From a virus (taxonomy: Duplodnaviria; Heunggongvirae; Uroviricota; Caudoviricetes): a stretch of DNA of 51,184 nucleotides. Positions 40,649 through 51,184 of the stretch are shown one piece after another. Position numbers and translations under genes: made by a program. The notes below the pieces were generated by a model. That model searched no databases and was not told where the DNA came from. It worked only from the letters and a program-made list of their open reading frames with translations. The number at the start of each line of letters is the position of its first letter. The stretch's first letter is position 1. The DNA is taken from the IMG/VR virus record IMGVR_UViG_2585427745_000020. One strand, 5' to 3'.

Positions 40649-40849
40649 ATGCAACACGAACTACAACCTGATTCACTGGTTGATTTGAAATTCATCATGG
40701 CTGATACTGGCTTTGGTAAAACCTTCATCTATGACCGGATTAAGTCCGGCGACCTGCCAAAAGCCAAAGTTATCCACGGACGCGCAAGATGGTTATATCG
40801 TGACCATTGTGAATTCAAAAATAAGCTCTTAAGCCGCGCCAATGGGTAA
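40649..40849 (+). CDS. torI: Excisionase / recombination directionality factor TorI
   Basis: 66 aa MQHELQPDSLVDLKFIMADTGFGKTFIYDRIKSGDLPKAKVIHGRARWLYRDHCEFKNKLLSRANG, recognised as KplE1 TorI; RBS GGAGA at 40636-40640. Confidence 0.85.
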   Translation: MQHELQPDSLVDLKFIMADTGFGKTFIYDRIKSGDLPKAKVIHGRARWLYRDHCEFKNKLLSRANG

Positions 40850-40922
40850 AATAGCGGGTAAAATATTTTTCACATCTAAAAAACACCATTCCAATCAATC
40901 CCCTGCCGCTTCAAGTAGATGT

Positions 40923-40938
40923 CTGCAGGGGACACTTT
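40923..40938. repeat. attR core of the argW prophage (CTGCAGGGGACACTTT; 13/16 identical to attL)
   Basis: Direct repeat of the argW 3' end downstream of torI; also serves as the left junction of the tandem satellite. Confidence 0.6.
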
Positions 40939-41121
40939 AAAGACCTTTCTCTACATTTCACTTCATTACATAACCACTTAAAAAAACAGTAAGTTATCAC
41001 CGAATCGGCCTGATTTTCATTTCAGTTAATTTCATGACATTACAACCTCGTGATGGTATAAGTGATGGTATTCCCCAGTTCGATATGCAGATACCATCAA
41101 TTTACCAAAATGAGTACAGAT

Positions 41122-42396
41122 ATGGCCATTAATGTGCTTTCCCCCAAACAGATAGAAAACGCCAAGCCGAAGACCAATGATTACAAACTTACCGATGGAG
41201 GGAGTTTGTATCTACTGGTACGAAAGACTGGTGGAAAATACTGGCGTATGAATTATCGTTTTGATGGAAAACAAGTGACATTAGCATTAGGGGTCTACCC
41301 AGATGTCTCACTTGCAACAGCGCGGAAACGGCGTGATGAAGCCAGGCAACTACTAGCCGATGGTCGTGATCCTCGCGAAGCAAAGAAACCCAAAAAGGAA
41401 GACCCAATTTCCCCCACGTTCGAGAGTGTTGCCAGAGAGTGGCATAGTGGAACGATGGGGCATCCTGAGTGGAAAGAGATCACCCGTAAAAAAATTCTCC
41501 GAGAAATGGAAAACCACCTCTTTCCTGCCATCGGTTCAAAGCCTATCGATACGCTCAAAACCCGTGACTTGATGCCGATGCTGGTTGAGATGACTGAGAA
41601 AGGAATTGGTGCCACAACGAGCCGTGTAAAAACCACTATGACGAGCATCTTCCGTTATGCCGTGCAACGTGGAATTGTCGATTACAACCCTGCCCACGAT
41701 CTAAAAGGTGCAATTACGGCCCCCAAAGTACGACATCGCCCCGCACTACCTCTCGAACGTTTACCTGAACTGTTAGCGAAAACGAGAAGTTACACGGGAA
41801 GACCATTGACTCGCCTAGCAGTTCTCTTTTCCCTGCACACTTTTGTGCGATCCAGCGAACTACGACATGCCAGATGGGAGGAGATCGACATTGAAAATGG
41901 GCTATGGACGATACCAGGACAACGTGAAGAGATCGCAGGGGTTAAATTCTCAGATCGGGGTGCAAAGATGGGGGCTGCTCATTATGTCCCGCTATCTAGT
42001 CAGGCTATCGGGGTACTGGAGGATATAAGGAAAATCAGTGGTGAATATCTGCTGGTTTTTCCCGGTGACAGCAACCCATATAAACCGATGAGCGAAAACA
42101 CAGTTAATAAAGCACTGCGAACGATGGGTTACGACACTCAAACTGATGTTTGCTTGCATGGGTTCAGGGCGATGGCCTGCTCTGCACTGACCGAATCAGG
42201 ACTCTGGTCACGCGATGCAGTTGAACGGCAGATGAGTCACCAAGAAAGAAACGAAGTGCGGGCAGCATATGTGCATCTTGCGCAGCACATGCAGGAACGC
42301 CGCAGAATGATGCAATGGTGGTCTAATTATCTGGAACTAAATAAGGACGAATTCCATGCTCCTTATGACTTATCAGGTATTAACATTATCAATTAA
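41122..42396 (+). CDS. Tyrosine integrase of the satellite (P4-type annotation family)
   Basis: ORF 41062-42396; by alignment with IntS the likely start is MAINVLSPKQIENAKPK (41122; 41110 also possible); about 424 aa. Confidence 0.85.
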   Translation: MAINVLSPKQIENAKPKTNDYKLTDGGSLYLLVRKTGGKYWRMNYRFDGKQVTLALGVYPDVSLATARKRRDEARQLLADGRDPREAKKPKKEDPISPTFESVAREWHSGTMGHPEWKEITRKKILREMENHLFPAIGSKPIDTLKTRDLMPMLVEMTEKGIGATTSRVKTTMTSIFRYAVQRGIVDYNPAHDLKGAITAPKVRHRPALPLERLPELLAKTRSYTGRPLTRLAVLFSLHTFVRSSELRHARWEEIDIENGLWTIPGQREEIAGVKFSDRGAKMGAAHYVPLSSQAIGVLEDIRKISGEYLLVFPGDSNPYKPMSENTVNKALRTMGYDTQTDVCLHGFRAMACSALTESGLWSRDAVERQMSHQERNEVRAAYVHLAQHMQERRRMMQWWSNYLELNKDEFHAPYDLSGINIIN

Positions 42397-42426
42397 ATAC
42401 TCTTATAATTTAAAACAGAGGTCATA

Positions 42427-43308
42427 ATGCAGCATTCAACAGAGAATGAAACTATATTCTTAGGAAATCTATGGATTGACAAAAAAATACCACCATTAGA
42501 ATATTGTTCATTTGAACGCGCTTCAAGACTATTAGAATGCGAGATTGATGATTTATTACATCTATACGAAATAGGCGCTTTTAATATCGCATTCAAGGCG
42601 GATGGACTTGCAGTTAGATTTAATGTTAATTTCCTCAATAAAAATCAGAAAATGGAAATTGACTTAATTCATCCCGTATTAACTAATCAATCACTAGAGA
42701 TGGAATTTTCAACAATATGGTATGACCTTAAAGATGATTCCTTTGAACATTTTGAAAATGGGCTTCAAATTATAGGATTTGCCTGTGGTATTTGGTACGC
42801 CGATGATATGATAAGTAACATAAAAAATGGATTAGCTATAGATCCAGATTATGAATTCAGGCTTAAACCGGTAAAAATACGAGATAATGTTTTGATGGCA
42901 ACGGCCTCATATGAAGGAAATAAGGTCATTGAGATTCCATTTGAAGATCTTCTTATCATGCGAAGAGATTTAGAGTTAATATGGAAATCAGTAAAAACTG
43001 GAATTCCTATGCCAAGTTTACTTACGAAAAGAATTTCATCTGAACCTAAAATCCCCAAGCGATTAAATAACACTGCTGAGCATCATGCAAAAAATAGGGA
43101 GGGGTTATTAAATGCAGCCATATATATATTAGCAAAATACCCAAGCGAATGTCGTGGTGAAAGAAAAGAGATAAGTCCTGAAAAGTGGACTAACGCCATA
43201 ATTAAACATTTAGGAGAGCTACCTCCAATATTTATCACTAATGAACAAGAAATCTTAAGAAAATTACGATTAGCGGTTAATCATGCGGGATTAAAACAAA
43301 AGGGGTAG
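42427..43308 (+). CDS. Hypothetical AT-rich cargo protein between integrase and AlpA-like gene
   Basis: 293 aa; RBS AGAGG; markedly lower GC than the flanking integrase and primase genes; no recognised motif. Confidence 0.55.
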   Translation: MQHSTENETIFLGNLWIDKKIPPLEYCSFERASRLLECEIDDLLHLYEIGAFNIAFKADGLAVRFNVNFLNKNQKMEIDLIHPVLTNQSLEMEFSTIWYDLKDDSFEHFENGLQIIGFACGIWYADDMISNIKNGLAIDPDYEFRLKPVKIRDNVLMATASYEGNKVIEIPFEDLLIMRRDLELIWKSVKTGIPMPSLLTKRISSEPKIPKRLNNTAEHHAKNREGLLNAAIYILAKYPSECRGERKEISPEKWTNAIIKHLGELPPIFITNEQEILRKLRLAVNHAGLKQKG

Positions 43309-43410
43309 ACTGAAACAATCTACAGGTAGAGTTGATTACACTACCTTCACAGCATTTTGATATCCCCATAGTATCTGCCGTGTTCATTACATAATACGGC
43401 AGGTAATTTC

Positions 43411-43626
43411 ATGACATTAAAAACTTATCCTATCACTGGACATGCCCGCCCACGAGCTACTGCTGACTTTTTGCAAATAAGTACGGTTACTCTCTGGCGC
43501 TGGGAAAAGAACAATCCTGAATTTCCCAAATCTATACGCATTTCAAAACGGGTATCTGTTTACGATGCACAAGAAATTAGGCAGTGGGTTAAAGCTCAAT
43601 CAGCAGGATTGGAGGAAGTAGTGTAA
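43411..43626 (+). CDS. AlpA/Vis-family DNA-binding protein (excisionase-like regulator)
   Basis: 71 aa; MerR-like winged-helix pattern (ADFLQISTVTLWRWEKNNPEFPKSIRISKRVSVYDAQEIRQWV). Confidence 0.7.
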   Translation: MTLKTYPITGHARPRATADFLQISTVTLWRWEKNNPEFPKSIRISKRVSVYDAQEIRQWVKAQSAGLEEVV

Positions 43627-43675
43627 TGACAATATTAACAAAGCTGGGGAGAAAAAAGCCTCCCCAACGTATTAA

Positions 43676-43870
43676 TCAATTCTTTGGTTCTAAACCTCGG
43701 CTTTGTAACTCTTTGCGTAGAATGCGCTTGATCCAAGCCGCTAGCGATTCATCGCCATCCTGCTGTTGTGCTTGTTCCATCAGTTCACGCAGTTCAGGGT
43801 CAAGTCGGAACTGGAATGGCGGATTCCCACGTCTTTCATTTTTGTGTGTTGACACGTCAATTACACCCAT
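43676..43870 (-). CDS. Ribbon-helix-helix (Arc/MetJ-type) regulator of the satellite
   Basis: 64 aa; PPFQFRLDPELRELMEQ beta-strand/helix motif; divergently transcribed from the downstream operon. Confidence 0.6.
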   Translation of the reverse strand: MGVIDVSTHKNERRGNPPFQFRLDPELRELMEQAQQQDGDESLAAWIKRILRKELQSRGLEPKN

Positions 43871-43884
43871 TGTAATGTATTTAT

Positions 43885-43903
43885 GTGTAATGACACATTA
43901 CAC
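43885..43903. promoter_or_regulatory. Palindromic operator candidate (GTGTAATG-ACA-CATTACAC)
   Basis: Perfect 8-bp inverted repeat with 3-bp spacer in the divergent promoter region, 15 bp upstream of the RHH start. Confidence 0.45.
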
Positions 43904-43986
43904 ACAGAAAAACAAAATAGCAACGCCCCGGAGTGTTTGCAGCAGCACCGAGGCGTCTGACCAGCACGTTATATGAGGTAACGAAG

Positions 43987-44163
43987 ATGGCTAAACAGAA
44001 GTGTACCTGGTTATTTGCGGCGATCAACCGCAGTCAACGCAATGCCCGTCCTGTGATGTTAAGGATCACCGCAGATAACGAACGATCAGCGCGGCGCAGA
44101 CTTGCCCCGGACTATGTACTGAGCTTTGCCGGGCGCATTCCCTGCGGAGGTGAACATGCGTAA
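43987..44163 (+). CDS. Hypothetical small basic protein
   Basis: 58 aa from ATG 43987 (MAKQKCTWLFAAINRSQRNARPVMLRITADNERSARRR...); track ORF begins at 43933. Confidence 0.35.
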   Translation: MAKQKCTWLFAAINRSQRNARPVMLRITADNERSARRRLAPDYVLSFAGRIPCGGEHA

Positions 44164-44515
44164 TTATCCGCACCCCGGCGAACGCTGGCAGCATGAACGT
44201 GGCTGGACGGTCACGATTATCCGATTAATAGAAGCCTCGCCCTCTGTGGCGCTGGTTAATCCTGAATTCAGCTGTGAAGTGCTGATACGTCATGACAGCG
44301 ACAACCAGCTTTCTTCCTGCCCTCTGGCATGGTTTGAACAGCGGTATACGCGCCTGTTTGATGTACCGCTCTTTAAGCCTGCACCAGCTCCTGCAGGCAG
44401 TAGTGGTTCCGGCCCGCTGACACTGCATCCGTCTGTGCTATTTATCCGCTGGCGGGAGCGTACCATACGGCGTTCTGCTGAGCCTGACGACGGTCACTAT
44501 TCAAAGTTTCTCTGA
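44156..44515 (+). CDS. Hypothetical protein
   Basis: 119 aa from ATG 44156 with RBS GGAGG (44146-44150). Confidence 0.5.
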   Translation: MRNYPHPGERWQHERGWTVTIIRLIEASPSVALVNPEFSCEVLIRHDSDNQLSSCPLAWFEQRYTRLFDVPLFKPAPAPAGSSGSGPLTLHPSVLFIRWRERTIRRSAEPDDGHYSKFL

Positions 44516-44546
44516 CAAAATACCGCTGAAAACGGAGTAATTCACG

Positions 44547-44831
44547 ATGAATATTTCAAACGGGCTCAACGGTGCTCAGGGCCACACTTTGCCTGAAAAA
44601 CACAATACCGGTGCTTTTGCCTATGGGTTGTCAGAGGACAGTTTCGGAAAGCTGACCCGCGCAAGAAATGCCTGCGACATGCTCCAGCTTCTCTTTTCTG
44701 AATACCCGTCTCAGGCCGGAGCACTGGACGCAGGCTGTGCGCCTGGTGTCGCCGCGCTGATGGAGTACCTGCTGGCAGATTTGACGGATATTGCACACAG
44801 CTGCGCACTGATTGAAGGAGGTGCCAGATGA
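44547..44831 (+). CDS. Hypothetical protein
   Basis: 94 aa; ATGA overlap with the next gene. Confidence 0.5.
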   Translation: MNISNGLNGAQGHTLPEKHNTGAFAYGLSEDSFGKLTRARNACDMLQLLFSEYPSQAGALDAGCAPGVAALMEYLLADLTDIAHSCALIEGGAR

Positions 44832-45211
44832 ACCAGCCGCAGGTTTCCATTTTCCCGGTAGAAATGACCACCGCGCTTTACCGGCGGGCTATTGCTTCAG
44901 CATGGCGGCAGAAAATGCTGAACGAAACTGGCAGTGATCAGTATGGTCCGCACAGCCTGACAGTGGAGCGTATTGAAATGGCCATTGCGCTGCATATCGA
45001 GTGCGTACTGATTAACGAGTACGGCGAAGTGCAGGGCGCCGCTGCCGCGCTGGCACTGCTGACTGACATGCTGGAGCCGTCACTGCTGACCGCGCCGCCG
45101 GTACTGACCGCGCGCGGCTGTGAAGTGATGGCGGAGATGTACCGCACGCTTCCGGCGGCCTTTGATGACTTCTGCAGTACCGGTGTGACGTTGTATGAGG
45201 GGGAAGTATGA
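44828..45211 (+). CDS. Hypothetical protein upstream of the primase
   Basis: 127 aa; coupled to the primase gene (ATGA overlap). Confidence 0.5.
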   Translation: MNQPQVSIFPVEMTTALYRRAIASAWRQKMLNETGSDQYGPHSLTVERIEMAIALHIECVLINEYGEVQGAAAALALLTDMLEPSLLTAPPVLTARGCEVMAEMYRTLPAAFDDFCSTGVTLYEGEV

Positions 45212-47880
45212 CAATACAGACGGTTACGCAGGTTTCAGCCGCCGCACGGGGGAAATGGCCCGTTATTCTGCAGATGCTGCGTATTGATGTACCTGAAAAC
45301 GGCAGGCACGGTCCCTGCCCGAAATGTGGGGGCAAGGATCGTTTTCGCCTTGATGACCTTGACGGGCGCGGGACGTGGATCTGCAGCCAGTGTGGCAATG
45401 GTGACGGTCTGGATCTGGTTAAGCTCGTAACCGGTTACAGCGTCAGAAAGGCTGCGCAGGAGGTGGCGCAGGTGCTTAATGTGCCGGATATGCAGGAACT
45501 GCCTGTTAAGCCTGCCAGACAAAAAGCCCCTAAACGCGACATGGGTCTTACCGTGGCGGCGCTGATGAAAGAGAGCCACACGGGAGAAAGCGCCTATCTG
45601 ACAGGAAAAGGGTTCGCCGGATACCCGGCCTCTCTGACCGGAAGCGTACAGCATATCAGCGGTAAGGATTTTCCTGCCGGTTCCCTGCTGTTACCACTCA
45701 CGACCAACACCGGAGCCGTGACCGGTGCACAGCTTATCGCCCCGACGGGTGAAAAAAGCATACTGCCCGGCAGCACGATGAAAGGCGCGTTTGTGTCGCT
45801 CAGCCCGTTACCGTCTGAACCACCGATACAGGTGGTGATTACCGAAGGTTACGCTACGGCGCTGACGGTAAGCCAGCTCACTGCCGGATGCGTAGTGGCT
45901 GCCATATCTGCGGGCAACCTGCCCAATGTGGCGCAGTCGCTGCGGGCACGCTGGCCTGAGGTAAAAATTATCATCGCCGGTGATAACGATTTTCAGGACG
46001 GGGGTGAGAATCCCGGCAGAGCCTTTGCTGAACGGGCGGCAAAAGCTGTTGGCGGCTGGATGACGCTGCCACCAGGAGAGATTAAGGCTGACTGGAATGA
46101 CTTTCATCGGGAGCACGGTATTACCCGTGCCCGTGAAGCCTTTCGCAACGGTCTGGTACTGTGCGGGGAAAGCCGCACGCAACTGCCGCACGGGTTCCGT
46201 CTTACCCAGGAATATCTCTGGTATGAAAAGCAGGTACAGCGCAACGGTGAGACGGAGATCCAGAACGTCAAAATATGCAGCCCGCTGCGCGTGACGGCAA
46301 TCACCTGCGATGCCGATGGCGGTAACTTCGGACGACTGCTGGAATGGGAAGATACGTGGGGTGAGTGTCGCCGCTGGGCGATGCCGATGGAAATGCTGAG
46401 CGGCAGTGGTGAGGAACTGCGCCGGGTACTGCTGGTTAACGGGCTGTCTTATATCAGCACCACCGGTGAGGCACGCGCACGCCTGATGGAATATATCTCA
46501 CTGTGTAAACCGGAACGCCGCGTGACCTGCGTCAGTCGTACTGGCTGGCATGGTCAGGTTTACGTCCTGCAGGATGAGGTCAGCGGTGAAGGTGCAGAGG
46601 GTGTCATTCTCCAGACCACTTCCGTGCAGGGGCGTGATTTCCGCGTGTCGGGCACAACAGAGGAATGGCGGGAGCATGTATCCCGCTACTGTACCGGCAA
46701 CTCCCGCGTGGCATTTGCTGTCAGCCTGGCCTTTGCTGCACCACTGTTACGGCTGGTTGGTATGGACGGCGGCGGCTACCACCTCAAAGGGGAATCGACA
46801 GACGGTAAGACCACCACCATGAAAGCAGCAACCTCCGTCTGCGGCGGGCCTGACTACTGGCAGACATGGCGGGCCACCGGCAACGCGCTGGAGGGATGCG
46901 CCAGCCGCCGCAACGATGCCGCCATGATGCTTGATGAGATCCGGGAAGTTGACGGACGCGAGGCAGGCAATATCGCCTACATGCTGGCAAACGGTCAGGG
47001 CAAGGGCCGTGCCGGTACGGACGGTGAGCTGCGTACCCGTAAGCAGTGGCGCCTGTTGTTCTTTTCAACTGGCGAGTTGTCTCTGACCGAACATGCGGCA
47101 AAGGCCGGTGAGCGTACTTTTGCCGGGATGGAAGTCAGGATGATCCAGATCCCCAGTGATTCCGGGAAGTTTGGCGTTTTTGAGGAGCTGCACGGCTTCG
47201 ACAGCGGCAAGGCTCTGGCAGAGCATCTTGAATGGGCCACGTCCTGCTACTACGGTTCGCCGTTCCGGGAGTGGCTGAAAGCACTGACCGCTGATCTTAA
47301 CGGACTAACGGCACAGGCAAAATCGCTGATGAAGGAATATGCTGCCGCCCTGACTCCGAAAGATGCAGGCAATCAGGTGGGCCGGGCTGTGAACCGCTTT
47401 GCACTGGTGGCGATGGCAGGTGAACTGGCAACCCGTCTGGGTATCACCGGCTGGCCTGAGGGTGAAGCACTGCGGGCAACCCGCGTCTGCCTGAACGCAT
47501 GGCTGAAAGATCGCGGGCACACCGCCAATCAGGAAGATATCGCCGCACTGGAGCAGGTTCGCAGTTTCTTTACCGCGAATCAGTACAGCCGCTTTGCAGA
47601 CTGGTATGACGAGCGCAACCGCCCCGGCAATATGGTGGGCTGGCGAAGGGTGGAGAAAGGCAGTACCGCGCAGGGCACGGAAGCTGTCACTACGTTCTAT
47701 GTCATGCCGTCCGGCTGGAAAGAAATCTGCAGGGGATTTGACCCGCGCAAGGTGGCGCGTCTGTGCGCAGATCGTGGATACCTGCTGCCCTCCACTGATG
47801 GCAAACTCCAGACAACCATTCGCCCGCCAGAGATGAATCCCCGCAGGCTCTATGTCTTCAACAGCGAGGTGCCGGGTTAA
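45208..47880 (+). CDS. Primase-helicase (P4 alpha-like: zinc ribbon, TOPRIM, D5-type NTPase)
   Basis: 890 aa; N-terminal CPKCGG...CSQCG zinc-binding motif; Walker A-like GESTDGKTT; typical satellite replicase architecture. Confidence 0.9.
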   Translation: MTIQTVTQVSAAARGKWPVILQMLRIDVPENGRHGPCPKCGGKDRFRLDDLDGRGTWICSQCGNGDGLDLVKLVTGYSVRKAAQEVAQVLNVPDMQELPVKPARQKAPKRDMGLTVAALMKESHTGESAYLTGKGFAGYPASLTGSVQHISGKDFPAGSLLLPLTTNTGAVTGAQLIAPTGEKSILPGSTMKGAFVSLSPLPSEPPIQVVITEGYATALTVSQLTAGCVVAAISAGNLPNVAQSLRARWPEVKIIIAGDNDFQDGGENPGRAFAERAAKAVGGWMTLPPGEIKADWNDFHREHGITRAREAFRNGLVLCGESRTQLPHGFRLTQEYLWYEKQVQRNGETEIQNVKICSPLRVTAITCDADGGNFGRLLEWEDTWGECRRWAMPMEMLSGSGEELRRVLLVNGLSYISTTGEARARLMEYISLCKPERRVTCVSRTGWHGQVYVLQDEVSGEGAEGVILQTTSVQGRDFRVSGTTEEWREHVSRYCTGNSRVAFAVSLAFAAPLLRLVGMDGGGYHLKGESTDGKTTTMKAATSVCGGPDYWQTWRATGNALEGCASRRNDAAMMLDEIREVDGREAGNIAYMLANGQGKGRAGTDGELRTRKQWRLLFFSTGELSLTEHAAKAGERTFAGMEVRMIQIPSDSGKFGVFEELHGFDSGKALAEHLEWATSCYYGSPFREWLKALTADLNGLTAQAKSLMKEYAAALTPKDAGNQVGRAVNRFALVAMAGELATRLGITGWPEGEALRATRVCLNAWLKDRGHTANQEDIAALEQVRSFFTANQYSRFADWYDERNRPGNMVGWRRVEKGSTAQGTEAVTTFYVMPSGWKEICRGFDPRKVARLCADRGYLLPSTDGKLQTTIRPPEMNPRRLYVFNSEVPG

Positions 47881-47914
47881 GGCTTTGCGTGAGTCTTATT
47901 TATTAAGGGTAACA

Positions 47915-48103
47915 GGTGAAACAGGTGGAACAACCGTATTTTACAAGGGCTGAACCTGTTTCACCTTCTGAAATAGTGAGGTGGAACAGATGTAACGCCA
48001 GCCAATCCGCTGTTCCACCTTGTTACCCGCGATGTTCCACCGGTGCAGTGTATATAAATACTTTATAAAACAAAGCAGTAACACATGTTTCACCTGTTCC
48101 ACC
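47915..48103. repeat. Iteron cluster (eight TGTTYCACC/GGTGRAACA octamers): ori/crr-like primase binding region
   Basis: Octamers at 47915, 47924, 47957, 47980, 48011, 48033, 48086, 48095 in both orientations, with an AT-rich block (48050-48075); resembles P4 ori/crr type I iterons. Confidence 0.65.
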
Positions 48104-48191
48104 GCATCAGGGACATAAAGCAGACTGAAACAGAGGGCATTTTTATCTGGCTGGCTTTCATAGCCACGTCTGAATAACCGCAAGCGCCCGT

Positions 48192-48209
48192 TGTGCCAGC
48201 CACCACACA
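48192..48209 (+). promoter_or_regulatory. Ogr/Delta-type late promoter dyad (TGT-N12-ACA)
   Basis: TGTGCCAGCCACCACACA about 73 nt upstream of the sid-like start codon. Confidence 0.5.
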
Positions 48210-48281
48210 CTGATCACCGATAGTGTGCTTGTGTCAGCCACGACACAATTGACGTAACGAACCAACCCGACAGGAGAAGTC

Positions 48282-49025
48282 ATGAACAACACCGCAGTGA
48301 ATAACAACCTTTCCACTTTTCCGGCTGTAACGCAGCGGGCACTGGAAACCATGAACACAGCCAGAAACGCATGGCTTGAAGCACGTCGTCAGCAGAAAGC
48401 GGCAGCGGATAATATTGCGACAATCCGCCAGCGTCGCGCTGAAATGGAAGCCACGACGAACACACTGAATGAGGAGTGGCGCACGCTGTTTCGTGAAAGT
48501 CAGGGCGTGGTCTCAAAGGAAATGAAAAAACTGCGCACGGAAATTGCGCTGGGACGAGAAACGCTTGAGGATTTTGATGAGCTGCTGGCGGCTCAGGAAA
48601 GCGAAAATGCACTTTTGCCGCAGAAAGCTGCAGAATTAGCCGGAAAGTATATCCACGCGCATAATATTCTTGTGGATATTCGTGCAAAACAAATCTGGGA
48701 AGATTTTATGCAGTCGCATGGAAAAGCGCTTATTCAGACGCTGAGCCTGCTTAAATCCACAATGGGCCGGGAAGCCAGTGCCGTTGTGGGTGTGGTGAAT
48801 TCAGTTAATGACCCGGACACAGTGCTGAAAGACTTTATTCATAAACATATCACCAGACCGGCTCTGGCTAACGATGCGATGCCTGAACAGGACCCGGTGT
48901 TTAAACTGGCGGGAATTGCCCCGGATTATGCGGCGCGTCTGGATTTCAGTAATCAACTCTCTCCGGCAGCTATGCATAAAATTAAGGTTCGTCAGGAACT
49001 TGCTGAGAAGGAGAAAGCAGTATGA
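48282..49025 (+). CDS. sid: Sid-like external scaffold / capsid size determination protein
   Basis: 247 aa; RBS AGGAGA; Psu/Sid-family motif (EDFMQSHGKAL); directly upstream of psu. Confidence 0.55.
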   Translation: MNNTAVNNNLSTFPAVTQRALETMNTARNAWLEARRQQKAAADNIATIRQRRAEMEATTNTLNEEWRTLFRESQGVVSKEMKKLRTEIALGRETLEDFDELLAAQESENALLPQKAAELAGKYIHAHNILVDIRAKQIWEDFMQSHGKALIQTLSLLKSTMGREASAVVGVVNSVNDPDTVLKDFIHKHITRPALANDAMPEQDPVFKLAGIAPDYAARLDFSNQLSPAAMHKIKVRQELAEKEKAV

Positions 49026-49573
49026 CGGCCCGAGGCACGCCTGACCAGGCACTTACCAGTTTTCGGAATGCCCGTATTCTGTGGGCCGGACATAGTGAGA
49101 GCCGAAAAGCCGTTGAACAACAGATAGCATCTCTCCTTGCTGCCACAGAAAAACCAGCAGATTATGCCCGACAGCTCGAATTACTGCGGGAACGTCTGGA
49201 TGTGCTGAAATGGCAAATTAACTGTGCTGCGCGCGAATGCATTTACTCGCAGCATTTACTGATGGAGGCCTGCACAGAAGCAGCTCTCAGCAATTTTATG
49301 CAGGCGAATGGGGCAGCCCTGACATCTGCACTGGCTCCGTTCCTGAAGGGACGCGGAGGGGTTGACGTTGCGTCCCGTATATTACGCAGTGCTCTGGTTC
49401 GCCAGCTGGCAATAACACCGCCTGAAATTGCCGGGGATTATCGTGAGATCCTGGATGAATCCGGTTTGATACCTGACCCCGGGATGATTCGTGATTGCCA
49501 GGACTCTTACACCCCGGCACAACATCTGCATTTTCAGCAACGCCTGAATGACATTAACGATATACAGGAGTGA
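49022..49573 (+). CDS. psu: Psu-like polarity suppression / capsid decoration protein
   Basis: 183 aa; KWQINCAA, SNFMQANGAALTSALAP and YTPAQHLHF resemble remembered P4 Psu blocks. Confidence 0.7.
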   Translation: MTARGTPDQALTSFRNARILWAGHSESRKAVEQQIASLLAATEKPADYARQLELLRERLDVLKWQINCAARECIYSQHLLMEACTEAALSNFMQANGAALTSALAPFLKGRGGVDVASRILRSALVRQLAITPPEIAGDYREILDESGLIPDPGMIRDCQDSYTPAQHLHFQQRLNDINDIQE

Positions 49574-49851
49574 TTTTAATGGCACTTAAATGTCCGGAAT
49601 GCGGTACAGTTGCACACGCCAGAACAGCAGCCTATGAAGCTCCGTCAGTTAAACGCTCGTGGTATCAGTGCCAGAATCTGGAATGTTCCTGCACATTTAC
49701 GGCACTGGAGAGTGTGGATAAGATAATCATGAAACCCCGGCGCAATGAACAGGAACCAGACAAATCACAACCCCCGGTAAAACAACAGCAAACGCTCAAT
49801 CGCTATGGCTCCGCGTCAAAACTGTCAAGCCGTCAGCAGATTCCTGTCTGA
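49570..49851 (+). CDS. Ogr/Delta-family zinc-finger late transcription activator
   Basis: 93 aa; CPECG...22 aa...CQNLEC zinc finger as in P2 Ogr and P4 Delta. Confidence 0.85.
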   Translation: MILMALKCPECGTVAHARTAAYEAPSVKRSWYQCQNLECSCTFTALESVDKIIMKPRRNEQEPDKSQPPVKQQQTLNRYGSASKLSSRQQIPV

Positions 49852-49871
49852 TTAGAAAAAACGCCCACGTA

Positions 49872-49897
49872 ATCCCGGTCGAGTACCGGGATTTTTA
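49872..49897 (+). terminator. Rho-independent terminator after the late operon
   Basis: 8-bp stem ATCCCGGT / ACCGGGAT with loop CGAGT, followed by TTTTAACG. Confidence 0.7.
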
Positions 49898-50335
49898 ACG
49901 CCTTTTCCCTGGCTGGCCTGAGAGCGCATGAGTGCATGTCTATAGCGCATGAAAACGCATGAACCTTATGCACCATTTTTGACGAGAAAGCCCTTGTGTG
50001 GTGGCTTCTGAGACGATTTATGAGGTGCATGAAAACCAGTCTGTTAAGCGAAGCGGGCAGGCGTGCGGGGCTGTTCGCATCAACATAAAAATAACGGGCT
50101 GATATAGTTATAAAATCAAATGAACTCTTTTAGTACGACATGGGTATGTGCGCCAGTAGCAACGTCAGCCCCCAAGCTTTCTATTGTTCTTTTCTGTTGT
50201 ACCATCAATACGTACCGATTAGCTCCTAAGCATCAATATCAGTTTGAACGTATTGCTTTGAACTAATTTTTAGATGATTTTTTTCATTAAAAAATTATAA
50301 TGTTGTAGATAAAAAGAGAATCTTATAGAGGCGTT

Positions 50336-51184
50336 ATGTCAAATAAAGTTGATGTTTTTTTGAGCCGAGTTAGCCATGTATCACAGTTTGTATTGGTGGC
50401 ATTTGCTATTTTTGGATATTTTTATACAGTAAGACCAATTTACCAAAAGGAACTTTTATCAGAAGAAATTGCAAAAAAAGAAGTTGAATTAAATAAATTA
50501 AAAACAGCAATGGAAAACTCCCAAAAATTTATAGAGAATAATAAAATCTTACGAAAAGAATTGGAGGGAAGCATTGCCAAACTTGATTTACAATACAAAG
50601 AATCAGAAGAAAAATTAAATTCAATAAATTCTGAACTAAGAAAAACTTTAAATGAACTAAATAAACAAAAGACCATTTCCAAAAGAGCGGTCAATGCAAA
50701 CAACAAGAATCTTGAATCTGTTTTCTGGGAGAATTTTTCGGGGCTAGTTGGAGTAGTTTATATTTCTAAGAGCACAGATTTTGTGAACAATACACTGGGT
50801 GACGCCAAAACAGCCTATAATACTCCTAGTAATTTATATATATCTCCTTATGATGCAATTAATGAAGCATTAAAAAATGGCAATCATAACTTTATCTCAA
50901 GTTCAGAAAATGTCCCTGAAAATATCCGCAACAAAATTCTAGCAAAGATCCGTCGCGCTATTGAAAAAAATAAGATTTCATTAACAAAAAAACCTATCGG
51001 TTTTGATGAAAAAATTAATAGTCTGATAAAAACTATAGAGTCAACTAAGTTACGCAAAAATGAAAACGAAATAATGAAAAATAACACTGCAGAAAGAGAA
51101 CTATCATCTTATATTTTCCTGATAAATGGTCAATCAAGAATCCGCGCCATGGATTTCTTAAAAGACATTCAACATTTAGACTAA
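50336..51184 (+). CDS. Hypothetical AT-rich cargo protein (N-terminal transmembrane helix, long coiled-coil)
   Basis: 282 aa; very AT-rich; perfect TATAAT at 50296-50301 and RBS AGAGG upstream; stop codon is the last three bases of the window. Confidence 0.55.
   Translation: MSNKVDVFLSRVSHVSQFVLVAFAIFGYFYTVRPIYQKELLSEEIAKKEVELNKLKTAMENSQKFIENNKILRKELEGSIAKLDLQYKESEEKLNSINSELRKTLNELNKQKTISKRAVNANNKNLESVFWENFSGLVGVVYISKSTDFVNNTLGDAKTAYNTPSNLYISPYDAINEALKNGNHNFISSSENVPENIRNKILAKIRRAIEKNKISLTKKPIGFDEKINSLIKTIESTKLRKNENEIMKNNTAERELSSYIFLINGQSRIRAMDFLKDIQHLD

What the first reader, a model, noticed from the sequence alone, without database searches (positions are those of the whole stretch)
42427..43308. 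AT-rich 293-aa gene between the satellite integrase and the AlpA/Vis-like regulator
This ORF starts 31 bp after the integrase stop and has markedly lower GC than both neighbours, which points to separate acquisition. I recognise no motif in it. The integrase-proximal slot of integrase/AlpA-type islands is a frequent accessory-gene site, although a YfjH-like conserved gene in this position is possible.
Basis: inference. Interest (0 to 1): 0.5.

Follow-up and report, generated by a model that had tools for sequence, protein, structure and literature searches.

The report
Orphan fast-evolving gene between integrase and AlpA
The AT-rich 293-codon gene is real and belongs to a widespread, uncharacterised protein family that nearly always sits between the integrase and the AlpA regulator of phage satellites; it was inherited with its neighbours rather than picked up recently, and its function is still unknown.

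Summary
Observation confirmed: ORF 42427-43308 (+) starts 31 bp after the integrase stop, has a Shine-Dalgarno and a near-consensus promoter, and has GC 0.33 against 0.48 (int) and 0.42 (alpA).

It is a real gene under purifying selection (dN/dS 0.09-0.20). It matches nothing in Pfam, NCBIfam or PADLOC. Relatives match phrog_7144, function unknown. It is not homologous to YfjH.

A profile search finds 565 cluster representatives. In 14 of 15 island lineages examined (Enterobacterales and Aeromonas) the order is P4-type int, this gene, alpA.

The gene is AT-rich in all eight lineages measured, whatever the host GC. Low GC is therefore a trait of the family or slot, not evidence of recent acquisition. 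In E. coli it travels as one block with int and alpA.

The model shows an acidic N-terminal winged-helix of MerR/excisionase type, a hypervariable beta-rich centre, and a basic helical C-terminus that is shuffled between subfamilies. It is the most divergent gene of the satellite.

Other int/alpA islands carry unrelated genes here (DUF6387, a TPR protein, YfjH), so the slot is variable at a wider scale.

Best guess (0.38): a non-enzymatic sensor/adaptor of the int-alpA switch. Main rival: a satellite anti-phage or interference protein.

The parts
40923..40935 (+). Copy of the 3' end of tRNA-Arg (CTGCAGGGGACAC). This is the att core at the junction between the upstream prophage and the satellite, so it marks the satellite's left boundary.
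   Evidence: Alignment of window 40840-41130 with the tRNA-int region of L001 and with the window's own tRNA at 1009-1083 (tRNA).
41122..42396 (+). P4-type tyrosine integrase of the satellite. An alternative GTG start lies at 41062.
   Evidence: Pfam Arm-DNA-bind_3, Phage_int_M and Phage_integrase. RefSeq annotates the 424-aa form directly after tRNA-Arg in L001 and L002.
42380..42409 (+). Sigma-70 promoter-like site (TTAACA-18-TATAAT) overlapping the end of int, placed to drive the 293-aa gene.
   Evidence: Consensus scan, 11 of 12 matches. The -10 TATAAT is identical in L034; the -35 differs by one base (TTAATA) and the spacer by several. The site is not obviously kept in L032 or L013. Prediction only.
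42417..42421 (+). Shine-Dalgarno AGAGG, 5 nt before the ATG.
   Evidence: Sequence. AGAGG or AAGGAG is kept in the orthologues.
42427..43308 (+). The 293-aa gene ('X'), an orphan family with no curated name.
   Evidence: ORF. Purifying selection, dN/dS 0.09-0.20. 565 profile hits. AF2 model with pLDDT 81.
42484..42591 (+). N-terminal winged-helix domain (residues about 20-55) of MerR/excisionase type. It is acidic.
42592..43068 (+). Hypervariable beta-rich central domain (residues 56-214), with large insertions and deletions at residues about 69-111.
   Evidence: 13-16% identity to other subfamilies and dN/dS 0.23-0.30. Strands in the model; pLDDT below 50 at 82-108.
43069..43305 (+). Basic helical C-terminal module (residues 215-293; AEHHAKNRE...ECRGERKEISPEKW...PP...N).
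   Evidence: 58-68% identity across subfamilies, dN/dS 0.04, pI 9.5. Its phylogeny disagrees with that of int.
43305..43346 (+). Two inverted repeats right after the stop codon (GTAGA-9-TCTAC and AGGTAG-11-CTACCT). They look like a terminator or operator and are kept in L013.
   Evidence: Equivalent hairpins followed by T-runs occur in L006, L016 and L020. The role is not shown.
43346..43374 (+). Promoter-like site for alpA (TTCACA-17-TAGTAT).
   Evidence: Consensus scan, 9 of 12 matches. High nucleotide identity to L004 resumes only at about 43373, so this stretch varies together with X.
43372..43405 (+). 13-bp stem-loop or palindrome ending 5 nt before the alpA ATG.
   Evidence: RNA fold -17.8 kcal/mol, z -5.0. 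Hairpins of different sequence sit in the same place in 9 of 10 loci.
43411..43626 (+). alpA (Vis-like excisionase/regulator).
   Evidence: Pfam Phage_AlpA, E 1.6e-7.

Best explanation
The ORF encodes a member of a large, uncharacterised protein family. That family is a resident part of the 'integration zone' (int, X, alpA) of one class of Gram-negative phage satellites. It is not recently captured cargo.

I think the protein most likely acts without enzymatic activity, as a sensor or adaptor of the satellite's int/alpA switch. In this model the fast-evolving central domain recognises a variable partner, most plausibly a helper-phage or competitor protein. The conserved ends couple that recognition to the excision and induction machinery: the acidic excisionase-like N-terminal fold by protein contacts, the basic C-terminal helical module by binding nucleic acid or a conserved host factor. 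The logic is that of the SaPI Stl sensor-repressor, without homology to it.

The low GC that the gene shares with other occupants of this slot may also give H-NS a platform for silencing just upstream of the alpA promoter.

Shown: gene reality, family size, synteny, linkage to int, pattern of domain conservation, fold of the N-terminal domain, absence of known domains.

Inferred: any binding partner, any effect on alpA or int, and the H-NS role.
For: Synteny:
- int, X, alpA is the order in 14 of 15 island lineages, at different attachment sites and in two orders of bacteria.
- The spacing from X to alpA is a constant 90-113 nt in seven loci.

Linkage to int:
- Identities run together: Int 96/89/82% against X 86/72/65-67%.
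- In L032, synonymous divergence (dS) is about 1-1.7 for int, X and alpA but about 0.3-0.5 for the replication genes. The three therefore form one recombination unit.

Selection: purifying overall, very strong on the C-terminal module (0.04) and relaxed on the centre (0.23-0.30).

Domain content:
- No catalytic or effector domain was found in any of 121 relatives.
- Variants only recombine the same three kinds of module.
- The N-terminal fold is of the type used by excisionases, AlpA and TorI, and by protein-binding MerR-like proteins such as CbpM.

X and the presumed alpA promoter stretch vary together between the window and L004, while the alpA hairpin and alpA itself stay 86% identical. This resembles an immunity cassette.

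Literature:
- No global repressor or helper sensor is known for Gram-negative PICIs, and alpA is switched on by the helper (PMC6092414).
- H-NS silences alpA by binding its promoter in the P4-type element CP4So (PMC5148205).
Against: - No direct evidence shows any regulatory activity.
- The N-terminal helix that would read DNA is acidic (E-I-D-D-L-L-H), so classical operator binding by this domain is doubtful.
- No repeated operator motif was found: GGTASAG occurs once in the spacer.
- X is transcribed in the same direction as int and alpA, unlike stl.
- The experimentally studied EcCICFT073 responds to helpers, and no such gene is described for it (inferred from PMC6092414).
- This satellite already has an Arc-like repressor candidate at 43676-43870.
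- IS1 interrupts the gene in 2 of 66 E. coli genomes, so it is dispensable for carriage.
- AT-richness and fast divergence are also typical of defence cargo.
Confidence: 0.38

Rival explanations
1. X is a single-gene anti-phage or helper-interference protein expressed from the integrated satellite. In this reading it is accessory cargo in an integrase-proximal hotspot. The hypervariable centre recognises phage components, and the rest blocks infection or competing elements.
For: - GC is as low as that of the cargo-like ORF in the canonical psu/delta-side hotspot (0.33 against 0.30).
- It is the most divergent gene of the island.
- It has its own strong promoter-like site and a terminator-like hairpin, so it is probably expressed in the quiescent state.
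- Unrelated AT-rich genes occupy the same slot in other int/alpA islands.
- Modules are shuffled between subfamilies.
- 2 of 121 relatives give weak hits to the PADLOC candidate family PDC-S05 (E 4.6e-4 and 3.8e-3).
- Satellites are known reservoirs of defence genes (PMC9122126, PMC13586616).
Against: - PADLOC gives no hit for the window protein or for nine other slot proteins.
- There is no nuclease, NTPase, TIR, SIR2, transmembrane or other effector domain.
- The gene lies on the opposite side of int from the described P4 hotspot (PMC9122126, PMC13586616).
- One homologous family keeps the slot over 14 lineages and diverges together with int, rather than being swapped between conserved flanks.
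- tblastn finds no homologue in 50,697 phage records, either with the window protein or with the L004 homologue.
Confidence: 0.3
2. X is an accessory factor of site-specific recombination. It would be an excisionase-like protein that binds Int or att arms to bias integration against excision, or to exclude rivals using the same tRNA-Arg site.
For: - The N-terminal fold matches excisionases, AlpA and TorI.
- The position directly after int is fixed, and the N-terminal domain diverges at about the same rate as Int (94/86/83% against 96/89/82%).
- Here the satellite sits in tandem with a prophage at the same argW site.
Against: - AlpA already supplies the excisionase function in related elements (PMC5148205, PMC6092414).
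- A 160-residue hypervariable domain is not expected of an architectural factor.
- The C-terminal module is shared with islands whose Int is only 26-28% identical.
- Most P4-type integrases lack this gene: int-like matches occur in 4384 of 5426 genomes, while the three X types tested are found in 117.
Confidence: 0.12
3. The main selected property is the DNA rather than the protein. An AT-rich block between int and alpA would act as a nucleation site for H-NS-type silencing of the alpA promoter, and the protein would have a minor or unrelated role.
For: - Slot occupants from three of four unrelated families are AT-rich relative to their flanks: X 0.32-0.36, DUF6387 0.34, yfjH 0.37. Aeromonas X is 0.43 against 0.55.
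- GC3 stays at 0.23-0.30 in the seven enterobacterial loci measured, and synonymous sites are saturated in the more distant orthologue comparisons.
- H-NS binds and silences the alpA promoter in CP4So (PMC5148205).
Against: - The protein is clearly under purifying selection, with a very conserved C-terminal module (dN/dS 0.04), so it has a function of its own.
- The TPR occupant in L028 is not AT-rich (0.46 against 0.49).
- H-NS does not control CP4-57 excision in E. coli, according to PMC5148205.
- This idea can add to the other explanations but cannot replace them.
Confidence: 0.1

Closest known systems
SaPI master repressor Stl (Gram-positive PICIs)
   Same: Both are encoded next to int, at the border of the regulatory region of a phage satellite. 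Both are very divergent between related islands. Both have a helix-turn-helix-type N-terminus, a variable middle that in Stl binds helper proteins, and a distinct C-terminal domain (PMC6695447 abstract).
   Different: There is no sequence or fold match beyond a generic HTH. X is co-directional with int and alpA rather than divergent from the lytic operon. The putative DNA-reading helix is acidic. No operator or helper partner is known. Gram-negative PICIs are reported to use the activator AlpA instead (PMC6092414).
AlpA / Vis / Xis / TorI excisionase-type winged-helix proteins (Pfam PF05930, PF12728)
   Different: X fails the Pfam models and hhalign probability is only 2.6%. X is four times longer. 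Acidic residues replace the usual S/T/R DNA contacts.
PHROG family phrog_7144 (function unknown)
   Same: 30 of 80 relatives match it, best E 4.7e-78. This is the only library family that recognises the group.
   Different: The window protein itself does not reach E 0.1 against it. The family carries no annotation.
Cargo of the P4-like psu-int defence hotspot (Rousset et al. 2022; PMC9122126)
   Same: Both are AT-rich, fast-diverging genes of unknown function in a P4-related satellite, near int in the circular form.
   Different: The described hotspot lies between psu/delta and int, next to cos. In this satellite that is the far end (50336 onward), across the att site. X lies between int and alpA, is one homologous family, and matches no defence model.
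YfjH of CP4-57 (E. coli K-12)
   Same: It occupies the int-alpA interval, is of similar length (318 aa) and is AT-rich (0.37).
   Different: It is on the opposite strand and has no detectable homology.
Domain-swapping phage regulatory proteins of the Bro-N/KilA-N network in PICIs (PMC10111431)
   Same: Both are non-enzymatic modular proteins of satellites whose N- and C-terminal modules recombine between elements.
   Different: X has no Bro-N, KilA-N, ANT or ORF6N domain. It lies in the integration zone, not in the 'Bro zone' downstream of alpA.

Membership tests
YfjH (b2623) family | Detectable sequence homology to E. coli K-12 YfjH | tested here: not met
   BLASTP E 1.6. The relative P0010 against YfjH gives E 0.74. 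Family profile against YfjH by hhalign gives probability 0.4%.
YfjH (b2623) family | Antisense orientation between intA and alpA | tested here: not met
   yfjH is on the minus strand in K-12. X is co-directional with int and alpA in all loci.
AlpA/excisionase HTH_17 family (PF05930/PF12728) | Match to the Pfam models above their cut-off | tested here: not met
   There was no Pfam hit at E up to 0.1 for X. None of the 80 relatives matched at E up to 0.01.
AlpA/excisionase HTH_17 family (PF05930/PF12728) | Strand-helix-helix-wing fold | tested here: met
AlpA/excisionase HTH_17 family (PF05930/PF12728) | Polar or basic DNA-contacting second helix | tested here: not met
   The helix reads E-I-D-D-L-L-H, with D42 and L43 invariant. 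The domain pI is 4.2-6.7 in 13 of 15 aligned sequences and 7.8 in the other two.
Stl-type satellite master repressor | Encoded beside int and divergently transcribed from the induction operon | tested here: not met
   It is beside int but on the same strand as int and alpA, with a hairpin and a promoter-like site between X and alpA.
Stl-type satellite master repressor | Binds operators in the island and is released by a helper-phage protein | not testable with these tools
   This needs EMSA or ChIP and interaction assays. No repeated operator motif was found in silico.
P4-like psu-int defence hotspot cargo | Located between psu/delta (cos side) and int | tested here: not met
   X lies downstream of int, towards alpA. 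The psu/delta side of this satellite is at 48282-49851, with an AT-rich ORF from 50336. The hotspot definition comes from PMC9122126 and PMC13586616.
P4-like psu-int defence hotspot cargo | Occupant changes between satellites while both flanks stay conserved | tested here: inconclusive
   Window against L004: X 28%, alpA 88%, primase 97.6%, but int also drops to 76%. Within the lineage X diverges gradually together with int. Across distant int/alpA islands the occupant is unrelated.
P4-like psu-int defence hotspot cargo | Match to a known or candidate defence family | tested here: not met
   PADLOC gives 0 families for X and for 6 homologues. Only 2 of 121 relatives hit PDC-S05 weakly.
phrog_7144 | Significant match to the PHROG profile | tested here: inconclusive
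   X itself has no match at E up to 0.1. 30 of 80 profile-defined relatives match, best E 4.7e-78.
P4-like satellite (the host element) | Core genes int, alpA, alpha-type primase, sid/psu, delta, epsilon, in the P4 order | tested here: inconclusive
   Present: int, alpA, a Zn-ribbon/Toprim/DUF927 primase, two Psu-like genes and ogr/delta. No Phage_ASH (epsilon) was seen among the ORFs tested between alpA and the primase. The order int-alpA-primase-psu-delta is not the canonical one (PMC8628076) and resembles Gram-negative PICIs (PMC10111431).

The most novel reading that the evidence does not exclude
X is the missing helper-sensing component of a class of Gram-negative satellites. Its hypervariable centre would bind a helper-phage protein. 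Through the excisionase-like N-terminus and the conserved basic C-terminus, that binding would gate alpA expression or Int/AlpA activity. This would be a functional analogue of Stl built on an unrelated fold, with AT-rich coding DNA doubling as an H-NS silencing platform.
Probability: 0.2. Interest if true: 0.75.

Novelty: new variant of a known kind. Interest (0 to 1): 0.45.

Why it matters
How Gram-negative satellites sense their helper phage and switch on alpA is an open question. PMC6092414 states that no global repressor or inducer is known. This work defines a sizeable uncharacterised family with three notable properties. It has 565 cluster representatives. It holds a fixed position inside the integrase/AlpA module. 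Its conservation pattern is that of a specificity factor. That makes it a concrete, testable candidate either for the helper sensor or for a new single-gene interference function. The work also shows that low GC in this slot is a maintained trait rather than a mark of recent transfer, which matters when composition is used to call 'cargo' in mobile elements.

Tried and rejected
- **Library searches.** Pfam, NCBIfam, PADLOC and PHROG scans of the protein gave nothing. A Pfam scan of 80 relatives gave only four scattered chance-level hits.
- **Solved structures by sequence.** A profile search against PDB sequences gave one chance hit, E 1.9.
- **Structure searches.**
  - Foldseek against viral structures gave nothing at E up to 0.001.
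  - The afdb50 library was unavailable.
- **YfjH homology.** Rejected.
- **Other slot occupants.** Homology to DUF6387 and to the TPR protein was rejected, with hhalign probability below 1%.
- **Phage genomes.** tblastn of X and of the L004 homologue found no match.
- **A GGTA..TACC / GGTASAG operator motif.**
  - The palindrome is seen after the stop codon in four loci.
  - The motif is not enriched in the satellite, with one copy in the spacer, so I make no operator claim.
- **Rfam on 40800-51184.** No known RNA, including P4-type immunity RNAs.
- **Literature.** A search by protein accession found no paper. Papers on PICIs and P4-like satellites do not describe this gene.
- **PADLOC PDC-S05 hits.** The weak hits in 2 of 121 relatives were not resolved to a member or a region.
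- **Genome-contig scan.** The scan with the wide alignment failed for lack of conserved stretches. The narrow one returned only three loci.

Full report
**1. The observation**

The ORF is there exactly as described: 42427-43308 on the + strand, ATG start, 293 aa. The integrase stop ends at 42396, so the ATG is the 31st base after it.

Signals around the start:
- AGAGG lies 5 nt upstream of the ATG.
- A near-consensus sigma-70 site, TTAACA-18-TATAAT, lies at 42380-42409.

Composition:
- GC is 0.334 and GC3 is 0.25. Integrase is 0.48, alpA 0.42 and the following 4 kb 0.57.
- Only 1% of all 882-nt windows in the 51-kb sequence are as AT-rich.

At this composition, an open frame of 293 codons has a chance probability of about 1.5e-11. 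The other five frames hold 7-38 stops.

**2. The setting**

The tRNA-Arg(CCU) gene lies at 1009-1083. It is followed by a prophage of about 40 kb. The prophage has its own IntS-like integrase (1209-2402), a tailspike-like ORF, and at its far end a protein 100% identical to annotated TorI (40649-40849).

A second copy of the tRNA 3' end (CTGCAGGGGACAC, 40923-40935) marks the start of a satellite. From there, the sequence up to the integrase is nearly identical (one mismatch in the aligned stretch) to E. coli strains in which the same integrase sits directly beside tRNA-Arg with no prophage.

The satellite's genes, in order:

| Gene | Coordinates / note |
|---|---|
| P4-type int | 41122-42396 |
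| the 293-aa gene ('X') | 42427-43308 |
| alpA | 43411-43626 |
| Arc-like gene | minus strand, 43676-43870 |
| icd-like gene | small |
| phrog_30862, phrog_14861, DUF5375 | |
| primase (Zn-ribbon/Toprim/DUF927) | 45208-47880 |
| two Psu-like genes | 48282-49573 |
| ogr/delta | 49570-49851 |
| another AT-rich ORF | from 50336 |

This element has P4-like capsid-hijack genes, but the int-alpA-primase order is that of Gram-negative PICIs (PMC8628076, PMC10111431). The published P4 defence hotspot lies between psu and int (PMC9122126, PMC13586616). In this element that is the 50336 end, not the slot of X.

**3. What the protein is**

No library names it. Pfam, NCBIfam, PADLOC and PHROGs all gave nothing for X. 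RefSeq calls it 'hypothetical protein', and so does every named member of nine clusters.

A first search found 14 relatives. A profile of those, run against 1.84 billion representatives, found 565 proteins at E up to 0.001 and 175 at E up to 1e-10. Most are 270-350 aa and match over their full length. Thirty of 80 relatives match phrog_7144, function unknown. None of the 80 matches a Pfam family credibly.

With an 80-sequence alignment, AlphaFold gives mean pLDDT 81.4. The model has three parts:
- a strand-helix-helix-wing unit at residues about 26-68;
- a beta-rich centre with a disordered, insertion-prone tip at about 69-111;
- a helical C-terminus at 215-292.

Charge matters for interpretation. 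The winged-helix domain is acidic (pI 4.5), and its second helix reads E-I-D-D-L-L-H where excisionases carry S/T/R. The C-terminal module is basic (pI 9-9.6). I therefore do not claim that the N-terminus binds DNA. Protein-binding members of this fold exist, such as CbpM and TorI.

**4. How it evolves**

It is a functional gene. Against orthologues from Salmonella, Pantoea and metagenomes, dN/dS is 0.09-0.20. By domain it is 0.04 for the C-terminal module and 0.23-0.30 for the centre. For the N-terminus it is 0.07-0.25 in the two comparisons where synonymous sites are not saturated.

It is the most divergent gene of the satellite. Against L004, the primase is 97.6% identical, DUF5375 90%, AlpA 88%, Int 76% and X 28%.

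Within the lineage it diverges in step with the integrase. Int at 96, 89 and 82% corresponds to X at 86, 72 and 65-67%. In L032, int, X and alpA share a high dS (about 1-1.7), while the replication genes have dS of about 0.3-0.5. The three genes therefore form one recombination unit.

The gene is also mosaic. Its C-terminal module is 61-62% identical to that of homologues in islands whose Int is only 26-28% identical. The homologue beside the closest integrase (L004) has a C-terminal module only 26% identical.

**5. Where it is found**

In complete E. coli genomes:
- The window allele occurs in 66 of 5426. In 63 of these it lies in one block with this int and alpA.
- Two other subfamilies occur in 10 and 41 genomes.
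- P4-type integrase-like sequence is found in 4384 genomes, so most such integrases have no X.

I read the gene order around homologues in 15 island lineages. These were the window type (six loci) and L004, L006, L010, L014, L015, L016, L020, L021 and L023. The hosts are E. coli, Salmonella, Pantoea, Klebsiella, Yersinia, Pectobacterium, Intestinirhabdus, Xenorhabdus, Providencia and Aeromonas. All of these have int, X, alpA on one strand, at several attachment sites. One distant Aeromonas relative sits elsewhere.

**6. The GC argument**

Homologues have GC 0.32-0.36 (GC3 0.23-0.30) in seven enterobacterial loci, while their integrases range from 0.38 to 0.54. In Aeromonas the gene is 0.43 against 0.55 for int.

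In the more distant orthologue comparisons synonymous sites are saturated, yet the gene stays AT-rich. Low GC is therefore maintained, not a leftover of recent import.

Unrelated occupants of the same slot elsewhere are mostly AT-rich too: DUF6387 at 0.34 and yfjH at 0.37. A TPR protein is not, at 0.46.

H-NS is known to silence alpA at its promoter in the P4-type element CP4So (PMC5148205). A silencing role for this AT-rich block is a reasonable but untested idea.

**7. Local regulatory anatomy**

After the stop codon come two short inverted repeats (43305-43346). They are conserved in L013, and in other loci the equivalents are hairpins followed by T-runs. Next comes a promoter-like site (43346-43374). 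Then a 13-bp stem-loop (43372-43405) ends 5 nt before the alpA ATG.

Hairpins of different sequence occupy the same position in 9 of 10 loci, with z-scores from -2.3 to -5.9. In most of these loci the Shine-Dalgarno lies in the 3' part of the loop or in the 3' arm.

High nucleotide identity between the window and L004 resumes at about 43373. X and the presumed alpA promoter therefore vary together, while the hairpin and alpA are kept. I found no repeated operator motif.

**8. Interpretation**

The inference of separate acquisition is not supported. YfjH is excluded.

My ranking of explanations:
- **Sensor/adaptor of the int-alpA switch (0.38).** This rests on fixed synteny, linkage to int, the absence of any effector domain in 121 relatives, and conserved ends around a hypervariable centre. 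It also fits the open question of how Gram-negative satellites sense helpers (PMC6092414).
- **Satellite anti-phage or interference protein (0.30).** This fits the composition, the divergence and the variable slot.
- **Recombination accessory factor (0.12).**
- **A mainly cis-acting AT-rich silencing block (0.10).**

Against my preferred reading:
- The N-terminal helix is acidic.
- The gene is co-directional with int and alpA.
- An Arc-like repressor candidate is already present.
- IS1 knock-outs occur in 2 of 66 genomes.
- At least one studied PICI responds to helpers, and no such gene is described for it.

None of the four explanations is shown. The experiments listed under next steps would separate them.

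**9. Verdict**

This is a genuine, uncharacterised and fairly widespread satellite gene family with an informative evolutionary pattern. No function is demonstrated. Interest is moderate.

Noticed in passing
window 43372-43405; the same place in L004, L006, L010, L013, L015, L016, L020, L021: A stem-loop or palindrome of 8-14 bp ends 3-11 nt before the alpA start codon in 9 of 10 loci. The sequences differ (CUGCCGUG, CCCGUAAC, CCCAUAAC, AUGCCUAGC, GUGUAUGAC), so the structure covaries. In most loci the Shine-Dalgarno lies in the 3' loop or arm. It could be a translational gate or an operator for alpA.
   Followed up: partly
window 40954-40979, 41023-41048 and 43400-43425; also TTCATTACATAA at about 40964 and 43384: The alpA start region (CAGGTAATTTCATGACATTAAAAACT) is repeated at 88% identity in the att arm upstream of int, with a weaker third copy there. 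These are possibly shared AlpA or Int-arm binding sites linking attL and the alpA promoter.
   Followed up: no
window 1009-40935: Two elements sit in tandem at tRNA-Arg(CCU). The first is a prophage of about 40 kb with an IntS-like integrase (1209-2402) and a tailspike-like ORF. Its TorI (40649-40849) is 100% identical to annotated TorI. It is followed by a second copy of the tRNA 3' end and then the satellite. EC1515 (L004) has the same prophage-satellite arrangement.
   Followed up: partly
window 50336-51184 (runs off the end): A second very AT-rich ORF (GC 0.30) lies just after ogr/delta, in the position of the published P4 psu-int defence hotspot. PADLOC gives only weak hits (JetC E 0.062, LeoB E 0.41) that may reflect coiled-coil sequence.
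   Followed up: partly
window 43676-43870 (- strand): A 64-aa Arc-like protein (phrog_228; RefSeq 'YlcI/YnfO family') is convergent with alpA and divergent from the icd-like/replication operon. It is a candidate repressor of the satellite's replication genes.
   Followed up: no
E. coli hits H7 (NZ_CP069707.1) and H16 (NZ_CP119006.1): IS1 is inserted inside the 293-aa gene in 2 of 66 complete genomes. Truncated alleles of 63, 136 and 257 aa occur in the 90% identity cluster.
   Followed up: no
L029 5317-6126 and L028 5318-6361 (E. coli); K-12 yfjH: Other P4-type int/alpA islands carry unrelated single genes of 269-347 aa in the same slot (DUF6387, a TPR protein, YfjH). Two of the three are AT-rich. 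None matches PADLOC.
   Followed up: partly
L010, L020, L021: int-X spacers of about 95 nt: Islands at the yicC site in Yersinia and Xenorhabdus, and one beside citrate-lyase and sensor-kinase genes in Providencia, share a conserved int-X spacer (TCTAGCxCGACGGxGCGAAAAGxGG...CCTTACC...TTTAAGG). It might be a structured RNA or a binding site.
   Followed up: no
L026 3808-4626 (Aeromonas veronii): A distant family member (P0112) lies away from any int or alpA, beside DUF2931 and bactofilin genes and, in L027, near a VgrG-like gene. Remote relatives are therefore not restricted to satellites.
   Followed up: no
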